Under the pieces are notes generated by a model that worked only from the letters and a program-made list of their open reading frames with translations, made no database searches and was not told the DNA's origin. The position numbers were made by a program, and so were the translations under genes. Shown here piece after piece: positions 53,811-55,572 of a stretch of DNA of 64,000 nt (its first letter is position 1; every line of letters starts with the position of its first letter). The stretch comes from Escherichia coli (GTDB taxonomy: Bacteria; Pseudomonadota; Gammaproteobacteria; Enterobacterales; Enterobacteriaceae), in NCBI RefSeq assembly GCF_036507355.1, contig NZ_AP027877.1, one strand, 5' to 3'.

Positions 53811-53887
53811 TGGTGCGTCCGAGTGGACTCGAACCACCGACCCCCACCATGTCAAGGTGGTGCTCTAACCAACTGAGCTACGGACGC
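53811..53887 (-). tRNA. valW: tRNA-Val (anticodon GAC)
   Basis: Reverse complement GCGTCCGTAGCTCAGTTGGTTAGAGCACCACCTTGACATGGTGGGGGTCGGTGGTTCGAGTCCACTCGGACGCACCA; valV/valW assignment is by position only. Confidence 0.9.
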
Positions 53888-53891
53888 AGGA

Positions 53892-53968
53892 TGGTGCGTT
53901 CAATTGGACTCGAACCAACGACCCCCACCATGTCAAGGTGGTGCTCTAACCAACTGAGCTATGAACGC
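53892..53968 (-). tRNA. valV: tRNA-Val (anticodon GAC)
   Basis: Reverse complement GCGTTCATAGCTCAGTTGGTTAGAGCACCACCTTGACATGGTGGGGGTCGTTGGTTCGAGTCCAATTGAACGCACCA; 4-bp spacer to the second copy. Confidence 0.9.
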
Positions 53969-53994: not shown

Positions 53995-54023
53995 ATATTA
54001 GCGGCAGAGTGGGAAGGTGGCAA
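53995..54023 (-). promoter_or_regulatory. Sigma70 promoter of the valVW tRNA pair, with GC-rich discriminator
   Basis: Minus strand TTGCCA-N17-TAATAT followed by TCGTCCCCG. Confidence 0.6.
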
Positions 54024-54275
54024 GAGGCAAAACGTAATTTTCTGCGCTATTTCGACCGTTTGCAGAGCTTTTAAGCAAATTGGCTATATTTTGTTGATTT
54101 GCAAGGGCGATTTTTATTCAGGATCGCATTTACATCTGATACAACCCAATAATTCGTGTATCAGAGTTTAAACAGAGTTGTTTGCCACCATCTCAAATCT
54201 GTCGTGGATAAATCCTCCGTAGCCTTTACACTTAGGTAGCAATAAAGGCACACAGATGCAGCAAAGGAATAAATC

Positions 54276-55532
54276 ATGGGATCTGATGCGAAAAACTTGA
54301 TGAGCGACGGGAATGTGCAAATTGTTAAGACCGGCGAGGTCATTGGCGCGACGCAACTTACTGAAGGCGAGTTGATTGTTGAAGCTGGCGGAAGAGCCGA
54401 AAATACCGTGGTCACGGGGGCTGGCTGGTTGAAAGTGACAACCGGTGGGATCGCCAAATGCACACAGTACGGTAACAATGGCACGCTATCGGTCAGCGAC
54501 GGTGCCATTGCCACAGATATTGTTCAGTCCGAGGGAGGCGCAATTAGTCTCTCTACGCTCGCTACGGTTAATGGCCGCCATCCCGAAGGTGAATTCAGCG
54601 TTGATAAAGGTTATGCCTGCGGTTTGTTGCTGGAAAATGGCGGTAACCTGCGTGTACTGGAAGGCCATCGCGCGGAAAAAATTATTCTCGATCAAGAGGG
54701 CGGCCTGTTGGTCAATGGGACAACCTCAGCGGTCGTGGTAGATGAAGGTGGTGAATTGTTGGTGTATCCAGGTGGGGAAGCCAGCAATTGTGAGATTAAT
54801 CAGGGCGGCGTTTTTATGCTGGCGGGGAAAGCCAATGATACGTTGCTTGCTGGTGGCACCATGAATAATCTCGGTGGTGAAGACTCTGACACTATTGTTG
54901 AGAATGGAGCCATCTATCGTCTGGGGACGGATGGTCTTCAGCTCTACAGTTCCGGTAAGACGCAAAACCTGTCCGTTAATGTGGGTGGTCGGGCTGAAGT
55001 GCATGCCGGTACGCTGGAAAATGCGGTAATACAAGGTGGAACAGTGATCCTGTTGTCACCCACCAGCGCGGACGAAAATTTTGTCGTAGAGGAAGATCGC
55101 GCACCGGTTGAACTGACCGGGAGTGTTGCATTACTGGACGGCGCTTCAATGATTATTGGCTATGGCGCAGATCTGCAACAATCAACGATTACTGTACAGC
55201 AGGGCGGTGTATTGATTCTCGACGGCAGTACGGTAAAAGGTGACAGTGTCACTTTCAGTATTGGTAACATCAATCTGAATGGCGGAAAACTGTGGCTGAT
55301 CACTGGTGCGGCAACGCATGTGCAGCTGAAAGTGAAACGCCTGCGCGGAGAGGGAGCGATTTGCCTGCAAACCAGTGCGAAAGAAATTTCACCTGACTTC
55401 ATCAATGTGAAAGGGGAAGTTACCGGGGATATACACGTTGAGATAACAGATGCCAGTCGGCAAACTCTGTGTAACGCACTGAAACTACAGCCAGACGAAG
55501 ACGGGATTGGCGCAACGCTCCAGCCTGCGTAA
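54276..55532 (+). CDS. ydhQ: Glycine-rich beta-helix-like protein (autotransporter-passenger-like, no obvious beta-barrel)
   Basis: 418 aa with repeated G-G-x-x-x-V/L motifs. Confidence 0.8.
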   Translation: MGSDAKNLMSDGNVQIVKTGEVIGATQLTEGELIVEAGGRAENTVVTGAGWLKVTTGGIAKCTQYGNNGTLSVSDGAIATDIVQSEGGAISLSTLATVNGRHPEGEFSVDKGYACGLLLENGGNLRVLEGHRAEKIILDQEGGLLVNGTTSAVVVDEGGELLVYPGGEASNCEINQGGVFMLAGKANDTLLAGGTMNNLGGEDSDTIVENGAIYRLGTDGLQLYSSGKTQNLSVNVGGRAEVHAGTLENAVIQGGTVILLSPTSADENFVVEEDRAPVELTGSVALLDGASMIIGYGADLQQSTITVQQGGVLILDGSTVKGDSVTFSIGNINLNGGKLWLITGAATHVQLKVKRLRGEGAICLQTSAKEISPDFINVKGEVTGDIHVEITDASRQTLCNALKLQPDEDGIGATLQPA

Positions 55533-55538
55533 AAACAC

Positions 55539-55564
55539 AGGCGCAACCCGCGAAGGTTGCGCCT
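55539..55564. terminator. Hairpin terminator between convergent ydhQ and mdtK
   Basis: aggcgcaacc-cgcgaa-ggttgcgcct. Confidence 0.65.
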
Positions 55565-55572
55565 TGTCTTTA

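What the first reader, a model, noticed from the sequence alone, without database searches (positions are those of the whole stretch)
54276..55532. YdhQ looks like an autotransporter passenger without a translocator domain
The 418-aa product is rich in glycine and in short repeated G-G-x-x-V/L motifs typical of parallel beta-helix adhesin passengers, but the ORF ends without an obvious C-terminal beta-barrel and I see no clear N-terminal signal peptide. It sits just past the valVW tRNA pair, a common anchor point for acquired DNA.
Basis: partly seen in the sequence, partly recalled or inferred. Interest (0 to 1): 0.4.

Follow-up and report, generated by a model that had tools for sequence, protein, structure and literature searches.

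The report
YdhQ: orphan autotransporter passenger, conserved
This is the known E. coli gene ydhQ: a beta-helix protein descended from the exported part of an Ag43/AIDA-type surface adhesin, lacking both the export signal and the membrane barrel, yet kept intact by selection across Escherichia, so it is probably a cytoplasmic protein of unknown role, not a dead remnant.

Summary
Window 54276..55532 (+) is ydhQ of Escherichia coli, 418 aa and 15% glycine. It matches Pfam AIDA repeats (E=1e-28) and the first two thirds of the pertactin/autochaperone domain. It has no signal peptide, no PF03797 barrel and no C-terminal aromatic residue. An AlphaFold2 model (pLDDT 89) is all-beta, and its best solved-structure matches are the Ag43 and TibA passengers.

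"Truncated remnant" holds only as history. The gene is in 5423 of 5426 complete E. coli genomes. It has the same ends, 418-419 aa and the same valVW-ydhQ-mdtK position in E. albertii, E. marmotae, E. ruysiae, E. whittamii and a deeper unnamed lineage. dN/dS is 0.06-0.14 at dS 0.4 to above 1, so it is under purifying selection. Salmonella and Enterobacter have no gene at this site.

The nearest full-length relatives (37% identity or less) carry signal peptide, AIDA repeats, autochaperone and barrel.

ydhQ lies on the promoter side of valVW with normal GC, no integrase and no flanking repeats, so it is not a tRNA-anchored island.

Published data place YdhQ in the cytoplasm. Its function is unknown. 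The gene and its leaderless state are already described, so interest is modest.

The parts
54276..55532 (+). ydhQ coding sequence, 418 aa plus stop: stand-alone AIDA/Ag43-type beta-helix protein
   Evidence: ORF. NCBIfam NF007409 equivalog 941 bits over 1-418 of 418. Pfam AIDA and Pertactin. AF2 pLDDT 89.1, all-beta. Foldseek best matches Ag43 and TibA.
54264..54272 (+). AAGGA Shine-Dalgarno (54264-54268), followed by an in-frame TAA (54270-54272) that excludes any upstream extension of the ORF
   Evidence: Read from the sequence. This stretch is invariant in four Escherichia lineages.
54498..54725 (+). Codons 75-150, the most constrained part of the gene (AIDA-module core, ...STLATVNGRHPEGEFSVDxGYACGLLLENGGNLRVLEGHRAEK)
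   Evidence: pN/pS 0.03-0.05 in sliding windows, against 0.11-0.30 elsewhere. Invariant columns. The best Pfam AIDA stretch is aa 99-159.
55056..55115 (+). Codons 261-280, an invariant acidic loop (SPTSADENFVVEEDxAPVEL) that is absent from autotransporter relatives
   Evidence: pLDDT below 50 for residues 263-274. Nearly all positions are invariant in 7 orthologues. Full-length autotransporter segments have gaps here.
55263..55484 (+). Codons 330-403, a truncated pertactin-like autochaperone region; the protein stops 15 residues later, where relatives continue into the rest of the domain, the linker and the barrel
   Evidence: Pfam PF03212 covers profile positions 2-78 of 121. Alignment to P0121, P0160, P0163 and P0165, which continue into PF03797 barrels.
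55539..55564 (.). GC-rich hairpin with T-runs on both strands: a bidirectional intrinsic terminator shared by the convergent ydhQ and mdtK
   Evidence: Terminator scan, 10-11 pairs, found on both strands; sequence.
53811..53968 (-). valV-valW tRNA-Val(GAC) pair, transcribed divergently from ydhQ
   Evidence: ARAGORN. The same pair is present in E. albertii, E. marmotae, Salmonella and Enterobacter loci.
53995..54023 (-). Promoter-like site for valVW (TTGCCA, 17 nt spacer, TAATAT), conserved in Salmonella and Enterobacter
   Evidence: Promoter scan. Conserved block in the three-genus alignment.
54131..55572 (.). Approximate extent of the Escherichia-specific segment (ydhQ 5' region, ydhQ, terminator) with no counterpart between mdtK and valVW in Salmonella or Enterobacter
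   Evidence: The mdtK-to-valV spacer is about 150 bp in L012 and L013, against 1604 bp here. Detectable homology ends about 160 bp upstream of valV. The left boundary is approximate.

Best explanation
YdhQ descends from the passenger of an AIDA-I/Ag43-type (self-associating) classical autotransporter. It keeps about 20 rungs of right-handed beta-helix, from mid-passenger to two thirds of the way through the autochaperone domain. It has lost the Sec signal peptide or ESPR at the N-terminus, and the autochaperone end, alpha-helical linker and 12-stranded barrel at the C-terminus.

It is its own transcription unit, with its own ribosome-binding site and a terminator shared with mdtK. It was inserted between mdtK and the valVW promoter before the known Escherichia lineages diverged, and purifying selection has kept it at exactly this length ever since.

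Without a signal peptide it cannot enter the Sec and type Va pathway, so the native protein stays in the cytoplasm. There it folds as a soluble, acidic beta-helical rod.

Shown: the architecture, the fold class, the age, the selection and the absence of targeting domains. Taken from the literature: the cytoplasmic location. Inferred: that it acts as an intracellular binding scaffold rather than as a surface adhesin. The best candidate functional surfaces are the ultra-conserved module at aa 75-150 and the invariant acidic loop at aa 261-280. The partner and the physiological role are not known.
For: Architecture: Pfam AIDA x4 and partial Pertactin, with no PF03797 and no ESPR. The match to the Ag43 NCBIfam model covers only model positions 249-442 of 948. 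There is an in-frame stop two codons upstream, the N-terminus is not hydrophobic, and the flanks hold no autotransporter coding remnants.

Fold: AF2 pLDDT 89.1, pTM 0.86, all-beta. Foldseek best matches are Ag43 7KOH, 7KO9, 4KH3 and 7KOB and TibA 4Q1Q, probability 1.0, E down to 5e-12. A phmmer search of PDB sequences finds the same proteins.

Relatives: 522 hits in 1.84 billion representatives. Apart from orthologues and short near-identical fragments, most of the listed hits are proteins of 1000-6000 aa at 37% identity or less. Of eight checked, seven have the autochaperone/pertactin domain, six the PF03797 barrel and three an ESPR leader. YdhQ residues 165-400 align to the region just before their linker and barrel.

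Selection: 7 orthologues of 418-419 aa with the same termini; dN/dS 0.06-0.14 at dS 0.41-3.1, with neighbours mdtK, cfa and ydhR as controls. Every 30-codon window has pN/pS below 0.3. In neutral simulation, 0 of 5000 ORFs stay open at d=0.425.

Distribution: 5423 of 5426 complete E. coli genomes. The only genome-collection hits are Escherichia. Synteny holds in E. albertii, E. marmotae and an unnamed deeper lineage. The gene is absent from the same site in Salmonella and Enterobacter.

Cytoplasmic location (literature): fusions without an added signal peptide are cytosolic and SignalP finds none (PMC13101318). YdhQ co-purifies with EF-Tu (PMC2672614), is recovered as an RNA-associated protein by OOPS (PMC11066096), and is detected by proteomics (PMC6561319).
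Against: No experiment assigns an intracellular function. Delta-ydhQ strains are routinely used as neutral controls and as an integration site (PMC6962156, bioRxiv 10.1101/2023.03.28.534373), so any role is dispensable in the laboratory.

The literature annotates YdhQ as an adhesin. One paper, citing Roux et al. 2005, says it is needed for early adhesion (PMC9110714). COG3468 members including YDHQ are listed in vesicle proteomes (PMC10458587). PMC13101318 reports surface display when a foreign signal peptide is added.

The EF-Tu and OOPS results are high-throughput and unvalidated. An acidic protein (pI 4.44) is an unlikely direct RNA binder.

YdhQ evolves 5-8 times faster at non-synonymous sites than mdtK or cfa, and positively selected sites have been reported (PMC9110714).
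Confidence: 0.72

Rival explanations
1. YdhQ is a non-functional, decaying fragment (pseudogene) of a once full-length autotransporter. It persists only because it has not yet been deleted.
For: Both targeting domains are missing and the autochaperone domain is cut at profile position 78 of 121. Knock-outs have no reported laboratory phenotype in phage work (PMC6962156). Occasional E. coli strains carry in-frame deletions or an ISEcp1 insertion.
Against: dN/dS is 0.06-0.14 in all 21 pairwise comparisons, with dS up to and beyond 1. Length and termini are identical in seven lineages. 0 of 5000 neutral replicates keep the ORF open at d=0.425. The gene is present in 5423 of 5426 genomes. The ribosome-binding site is conserved, and the protein is detected in proteomes (PMC6561319, PMC11066096).
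Confidence: 0.03
2. YdhQ is still a working extracellular adhesin or biofilm factor. It reaches the outside by a non-classical route (cell lysis, outer-membrane vesicles, or help from another autotransporter's barrel) and sticks by Ag43-like self-association.
For: The fold is that of the self-associating adhesins Ag43 and TibA. It is annotated as an adhesin and said to act in early adhesion (PMC9110714, citing Roux 2005). It appears among COG3468 proteins in vesicle proteomes (PMC10458587). Surface display was reported when an exogenous signal peptide was supplied (PMC13101318). Positively selected sites, as in surface proteins, have been reported (PMC9110714). It was predicted and detected as a CsrA target, like other biofilm genes (PMC5389547).
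Against: There is no signal peptide, barrel or C-terminal aromatic beta-signal. There is no RTX or type I secretion motif. The native-type construct is cytosolic (PMC13101318). Trans-translocation of a leaderless passenger has no precedent in type Va secretion (established knowledge of the pathway). The display claim was made without noting that YdhQ has no barrel, and periplasmic leakage could explain it (inference).
Confidence: 0.12
3. The ORF belongs to a genomic island recently acquired at the valVW tRNA anchor, so its features reflect foreign origin rather than Escherichia biology.
For: The segment is missing from the same site in Salmonella and Enterobacter. The valVW locus is a known island hotspot: SPI-2 ssa genes in Salmonella and type VI secretion genes near it in Enterobacter.
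Against: It lies on the 5' promoter side of the tRNA genes, not the 3' side where SPI-2 sits. There are no flanking direct repeats and no integrase or mobility gene. GC is 51.6% and GC3 50% against a window GC of 50.1%. It is fixed in every Escherichia lineage sampled, with divergence tracking that of the neighbouring genes. No close donor exists: the best non-orthologue is 37% identical.
Confidence: 0.05

Closest known systems
Antigen 43 (Flu) alpha-domain and other self-associating autotransporter passengers (TibA, AIDA-I)
   Same: Right-handed three-faced beta-helix built from AIDA-type (PF16168) repeats. YdhQ residues 26-214 align to Ag43 residues about 201-393 at E=1e-22 to 1e-25. These are the best Foldseek matches at probability 1.0. 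A pertactin-like autochaperone segment follows the repeats.
   Different: YdhQ has no signal peptide or ESPR and lacks the first ~200 residues of the passenger. It also lacks the autochaperone end, the linker and the PF03797 barrel. Identity is only 16-27%. It has an invariant acidic loop (aa 261-280) not found in these proteins. Its location is cytoplasmic according to PMC13101318.
NCBIfam NF007409 (PRK09945), the YdhQ equivalog; RefSeq product 'AIDA repeat-containing protein'
   Same: A full-length 1-418 of 418 match at 941 bits against a cut-off of 830. The same product name is annotated under the match in E. coli genomes. The window's gene is a member of this family.
   Different: Nothing differs structurally. 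The family carries no functional description ('hypothetical protein').
Large AIDA-repeat autotransporters from metagenomes (P0026 1534 aa, P0074 1156 aa, P0155 1014 aa)
   Same: These are the closest non-orthologous sequences, with 32-37% identity over 8, 3 and 3 matched stretches respectively. They share the same conserved module, V-x-G-x-H-x-x-G-x-F-S-V-x-x-G-x-A-x-x-L-L-L-E-N-G-G-x-L-x-V-L-x-G-H.
   Different: All three carry an ESPR signal peptide, 3-11 AIDA modules and a complete AC_1/Pertactin domain. P0074 and P0155 also have a PF03797 barrel match, and P0026 ends in ...LKLRVGF. YdhQ has none of these targeting parts.
Interrupted autotransporter pseudogenes of E. coli K-12 (yaiT, ydbA, yejO, ycgH; recalled from general knowledge, not tested here)
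   Same: They are autotransporter-derived genes that can no longer be secreted as a complete type Va protein.
   Different: As I recall, those are interrupted by IS elements or frameshifts and vary between strains. YdhQ is an uninterrupted ORF under purifying selection and is conserved genus-wide.

Membership tests
Classical (type Va) autotransporter | N-terminal Sec signal peptide, often with an ESPR extension (PF13018) | tested here: not met
   No ESPR hit. The N-terminus MGSDAKNLMSDG is polar and acidic, and the highest 11-residue hydropathy in the first 50 aa is 1.0. An in-frame stop two codons upstream excludes a longer ORF. SignalP 6.0 was negative in PMC13101318.
Classical (type Va) autotransporter | C-terminal 12-stranded beta-barrel translocator (PF03797) ending in an aromatic residue | tested here: not met
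   No PF03797 hit at E<=1. The protein ends ...LQPA, whereas relatives end in F or W. Only a 40-bp terminator lies before mdtK, and no barrel remnant is found in the flanks.
Classical (type Va) autotransporter | Complete autochaperone / pertactin-like domain (PF03212 or PF18883) preceding the linker | tested here: not met
   PF03212 covers only profile positions 2-78 of 121, and AC_1 is not detected. The alignment shows YdhQ stopping before the ...F-x-L-A...G-A-Y-x-Y-x-L...W-x-L segment of relatives.
AIDA-I/Ag43 (SAAT) passenger beta-helix fold | AIDA-type repeats (PF16168, TIGR04415) forming a right-handed beta-helix | tested here: met
   PF16168 at E=1.2e-28 in 4 stretches. TIGR04415 at 40.6 bits against a cut-off of 30. 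AF2 all-beta model, pLDDT 89. Best Foldseek and phmmer matches are Ag43 and TibA.
AIDA-I/Ag43 (SAAT) passenger beta-helix fold | Self-association that drives cell aggregation | not testable with these tools
   This needs aggregation assays with surface-exposed protein. Native YdhQ lacks the means of export.
NCBIfam NF007409 (YdhQ equivalog) | Full-length match above the curated cut-off | tested here: met
   941 bits against a cut-off of 830, covering 1-418 of 418.
Decaying pseudogene | Relaxed constraint (dN/dS near 1), stops or frameshifts, variable length among lineages | tested here: not met
   dN/dS 0.06-0.14, no internal stops, 418-419 aa in 7 lineages. Neutral simulation gave 0 of 5000 open ORFs.
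tRNA-anchored genomic island | Insertion at the tRNA 3' end, flanking direct repeats, an integrase, atypical composition | tested here: not met
   ydhQ lies on the 5' side of valVW. No flanking direct repeats. GC 51.6% against 50.1%. No mobility gene between valVW and mdtK.
Type I secretion (RTX) substrate | GGxGxD nonapeptide repeats | tested here: not met
   Zero GG.G.D motifs. No RTX family among the Pfam hits.

The most novel reading that the evidence does not exclude
YdhQ would be the first autotransporter passenger known to have been domesticated for an intracellular job. On this reading it is an acidic, cytoplasmic beta-helical rod that binds a component of the translation or RNA machinery, as hinted by EF-Tu co-purification and OOPS RNA-interactome recovery. 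It would do so through its ultra-conserved aa 75-150 module or its invariant acidic loop at aa 261-280, and would have been kept for that role throughout the genus Escherichia.
Probability: 0.15. Interest if true: 0.6.

Novelty: already known. Interest (0 to 1): 0.28.

Why it matters
YdhQ is still listed as an adhesin or autotransporter, and a 2026 paper uses it as a surface-display 'anchor'. It has no translocator and no signal peptide, so those labels are misleading.

The useful point here is evolutionary. A secretion-system passenger stripped of both targeting domains has been kept at exactly 418 aa under purifying selection across the genus. That argues for an unrecognised, probably intracellular, function of a beta-helix fold normally seen only outside the cell.

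It is also a caution for genome annotation: a truncated architecture does not by itself mean a pseudogene. The gain is modest, because the gene, its domain content and its leaderless state are already on record and knock-outs show no obvious laboratory phenotype.

Tried and rejected
1. Longer ORF or mis-called start: rejected. There is an in-frame TAA two codons upstream, and the N-terminus MGSDAKNL is conserved in all lineages.

2. Remnants of a signal peptide or barrel in the flanks: tblastn of 12 full-length autotransporters against the 307-bp upstream and 40-bp downstream spacers gave only noise (E>0.7).

3. The literal GGxx[VLI] motif as evidence: not above chance (P=0.24). The profile and structure evidence was used instead.

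4. DNA-level repeats, or att-like direct repeats around the gene: none apart from the two tRNA genes.

5. Anti-phage defence family: no PADLOC hit. PHROGs gave only an unannotated 947-position family (phrog_21473, E=5e-35), which says nothing about function.

6. RTX or type I secretion: no motif.

7. The word-indexed protein search returned only orthologues. The exhaustive HMMER search was needed to see distant relatives.

8. The genome-contig scan used two exact peptide patterns, so it can only show presence in Escherichia. It cannot prove absence elsewhere. Absence at the syntenic site was checked directly in only two outgroup genera.

9. Roux et al. 2005 (PMC545717), the source of the adhesin annotation, is not held in the library. 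What it showed for ydhQ is known here only second-hand.

10. P0079, which looked like a 55%-identical relative sharing the N-terminus, is a frameshifted low-quality copy of the E. coli gene and was discarded.

Full report
**What is there.** The window is an Escherichia coli chromosome segment, ydhS-ydhR-valVW-ydhQ-mdtK-ribC-cfa. The 2.3-kb stretch around the finding matches 5425 of 5426 complete E. coli genomes at 95% identity or more, and is annotated there as 'ydhQ: AIDA repeat-containing protein'.

- The ORF at 54276..55532 (+) encodes 418 aa.
- It has an AAGGA ribosome-binding site 7 nt upstream of the ATG.
- An in-frame TAA lies two codons upstream, so the start cannot be moved.
- Its stop is followed by a 26-nt GC-rich hairpin with T-runs on both strands (55539-55564). 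This acts as a shared terminator for the convergent mdtK, whose stop is only 40 bp away.
- Two tRNA-Val(GAC) genes lie at 53811-53968 on the minus strand. Their promoter-like site (54023-53995) points away from ydhQ.

**Checking the observation.**

- Glycine is 15.3% of residues and the protein is acidic, with pI 4.44.
- The literal G-G-x-x-V/L/I motif occurs only four times, no more than composition predicts (P=0.24). A looser motif and the periodicity of hydrophobic positions are significant (P about 0.004).
- Profiles are decisive. Pfam AIDA (PF16168) matches in four stretches at E=1.2e-28. Pertactin (PF03212) matches at residues 330-403 but covers only profile positions 2-78 of 121. Neither the barrel family PF03797 nor the ESPR signal-peptide family is found.
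- NCBIfam places the protein full length in the YdhQ equivalog NF007409. The match to the Ag43 model covers only positions 249-442 of 948.
- The N-terminus MGSDAKNLMSDG is polar, and nothing in the first 50 residues resembles a signal-peptide hydrophobic core.
- The C-terminus is ...LQPA. The autotransporters retrieved here end in F or W.

**Structure.** I aligned seven orthologues with seven extracted autotransporter segments and ran AlphaFold2 on that alignment.

- The model is all-beta, with mean pLDDT 89.1 and pTM 0.86. Short strands recur about every 18-20 residues.
- Foldseek against the PDB returns the Ag43 passengers (7KOH, 7KO9, 4KH3, 7KOB) and TibA (4Q1Q) at probability 1.0. Pertactin, Hbp, the IgA1 protease and other beta-helices follow far behind.
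- A sequence search of the PDB finds the same five proteins.

**Relatives.** An exhaustive HMMER search of 1.84 billion representative proteins found 522 hits.

- Apart from orthologues and short near-identical fragments, most of the listed hits are proteins of 1000-6000 aa. None is more than 37% identical.
- Of eight scanned with Pfam, seven have the pertactin/AC_1 autochaperone domain, six the PF03797 barrel and three an ESPR leader.
- YdhQ residues 165-400 align to the segment just before the linker and barrel of P0121, P0160, P0163 and P0165.
- YdhQ therefore corresponds to a piece running from mid-passenger to two thirds of the way through the autochaperone domain. Both ends needed for type Va secretion are missing.
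- tblastn finds no trace of them in the flanking DNA.

- Orthologues in E. ruysiae, E. whittamii and Escherichia sp. E4742, E. marmotae, E. albertii and further lineages are all 418 aa.
- An unnamed deeper lineage has 419 aa. Its mdtK is 83.7% identical to E. coli's, against 87.7% for E. albertii and 80.6% for Salmonella.
- All have the same first and last residues and the same valVW-ydhQ-mdtK arrangement.
- Pairwise Nei-Gojobori dN/dS is 0.06-0.14, with dS from 0.41 to saturation. For comparison, mdtK is 0.014-0.022, cfa 0.012-0.016 and ydhR 0.035-0.20.
- Every 30-codon window has pN/pS below 0.3. Residues 75-150 are at 0.03-0.05.
- In a neutral simulation, 0 of 5000 copies of the ORF stayed open at the smallest observed synonymous distance.
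- YdhQ is therefore a selected protein-coding gene whose leaderless, barrel-less architecture predates the divergence of the known Escherichia lineages.

**Origin and the tRNA argument.**

- In Salmonella and Enterobacter, mdtK is followed after about 150 bp directly by valVW. There is no ydhQ.
- The valVW promoter-proximal 100-160 bp is alignable across the three genera. The next ~1.4 kb is Escherichia-specific.
- Islands do use this tRNA pair. SPI-2 ssa genes begin 158 bp beyond its 3' end in Salmonella, and type VI secretion genes lie nearby in Enterobacter.
- ydhQ, however, sits on the opposite, 5' side. It has no flanking repeats, no mobility gene and host-like GC.
- An ancient single insertion is the most that can be said.

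**Where the protein is and what it may do.** The relevant evidence is published, not mine.

- PMC13101318 reports no signal peptide by SignalP 6.0 and a cytosolic location for YdhQ fusions that lack an added signal peptide. The same paper calls YdhQ a 'leaderless autotransporter' and reports surface display once a foreign signal peptide is added. In the passages I searched it does not mention that YdhQ has no barrel. I regard that claim as unexplained; periplasmic leakage is an alternative (inference).
- YdhQ co-purified with EF-Tu in a global pull-down survey (PMC2672614).
- It was among 17 unannotated proteins recovered as RNA-associated by OOPS (PMC11066096).
- It is seen in proteomes (PMC6561319).
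- Its mRNA was flagged as a CsrA target (PMC5389547), and a FlhDC SELEX site lies in the ydhQ-valV spacer (PMC9962212).
- Delta-ydhQ is used as a neutral control and as an integration site (PMC6962156, bioRxiv 10.1101/2023.03.28.534373).
- The adhesin label traces to Roux et al. 2005, which I could not read. PMC9110714 cites it for a role in early adhesion and also reports positively selected sites.

**Most likely mechanism.** YdhQ is a cytoplasmic, soluble, acidic beta-helical rod exapted from an adhesin passenger.

- The architecture, fold, age and selection are shown here.
- The cytoplasmic location rests on one fusion study and two high-throughput data sets.
- An intracellular binding role is inference.
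- The best candidate functional surfaces are the ultra-conserved residues 75-150 and the loop 261-280 (SPTSADENFVVEEDxAPVEL). That loop is invariant in all orthologues, predicted disordered, and absent from autotransporter relatives.

**Rivals.**

- Decaying pseudogene: refuted by the selection data.
- Extracellular adhesin reaching the surface by a non-classical route: possible but unsupported by any targeting feature.
- Recent tRNA-anchored island: contradicted by position, composition and fixation.

**Verdict.** The 'remnant' and 'acquired DNA' overtones are not. The gene, its domain content and its lack of a signal peptide are already in databases and papers, so this counts as already known. 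The added value is the evidence that the orphan architecture is ancient and selected. That makes the standing 'adhesin/autotransporter' label doubtful and leaves a modestly interesting open question about what a cytoplasmic autotransporter-type beta-helix does.

Noticed in passing
L012:6523-11371 (Salmonella) and L013:6528-11374 (Enterobacter): In Salmonella the SPI-2 type III secretion genes (ssaU-like Bac_export_2 onward) start 158 bp beyond the 3' end of valVW. In Enterobacter, type VI secretion genes lie a few kb beyond the same tRNA pair. The 3' side of valVW is therefore the island hotspot, whereas ydhQ sits on the 5' side.
   Followed up: partly
window 55056-55115 (YdhQ aa 261-280): The acidic loop SPTSADENFVVEEDxAPVEL is invariant in all seven orthologues, has pLDDT below 50 at residues 263-274, and is absent from full-length autotransporter relatives. 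It is a candidate YdhQ-specific functional site.
   Followed up: partly
L016:3578-6495 (E. coli AR_0013, NZ_CP032204.1): In this strain ydhQ is split by an ISEcp1 insertion and annotated as two pseudogene halves. This is a rare natural knock-out, one of three complete E. coli genomes (of 5426) lacking an 80%-covered match.
   Followed up: partly
Proteins P0003, P0007, P0008, P0009, P0012, P0014, P0015 (E. coli YdhQ variants): Rare variants of 370-402 aa each carry a single in-frame deletion of 16-48 residues, clustered at aa 98-145, 166-215 and 283-323. This is consistent with loss of whole beta-helix rungs. Each is a single-sequence cluster, so assembly artefacts are not excluded.
   Followed up: partly
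L003, L014, L015 (Logan runs SRR31578456, SRR26188688, SRR26188687): An unnamed Escherichia-like lineage has mdtK 83.7% identical to E. coli's, which is deeper than E. albertii and closer than Salmonella. It carries a 419-aa YdhQ (71% identical) in the same valV-ydhQ-mdtK arrangement. The GTDB r220 genome scan gave no match to it.
   Followed up: partly
window 55539-55564: A perfect bidirectional intrinsic terminator fills the 40-bp gap between the convergent ydhQ and mdtK stops. Salmonella and Enterobacter have a different hairpin after mdtK.
   Followed up: no
Proteins P0026 and P0302 (Logan contig of 27,331 bp): The closest non-orthologous relative of YdhQ (P0026, 1534 aa, 11 AIDA modules) appears to share one contig with a second AIDA-type autotransporter (1155 aa) in an unidentified organism.
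   Followed up: no
window 54264-54280: The ydhQ ribosome-binding site AAGGA is a GGA-containing sequence. ydhQ mRNA has been listed as a CsrA target (PMC5389547), and a FlhDC SELEX peak maps to the ydhQ-valV spacer (PMC9962212). Regulation was not examined here.
   Followed up: no
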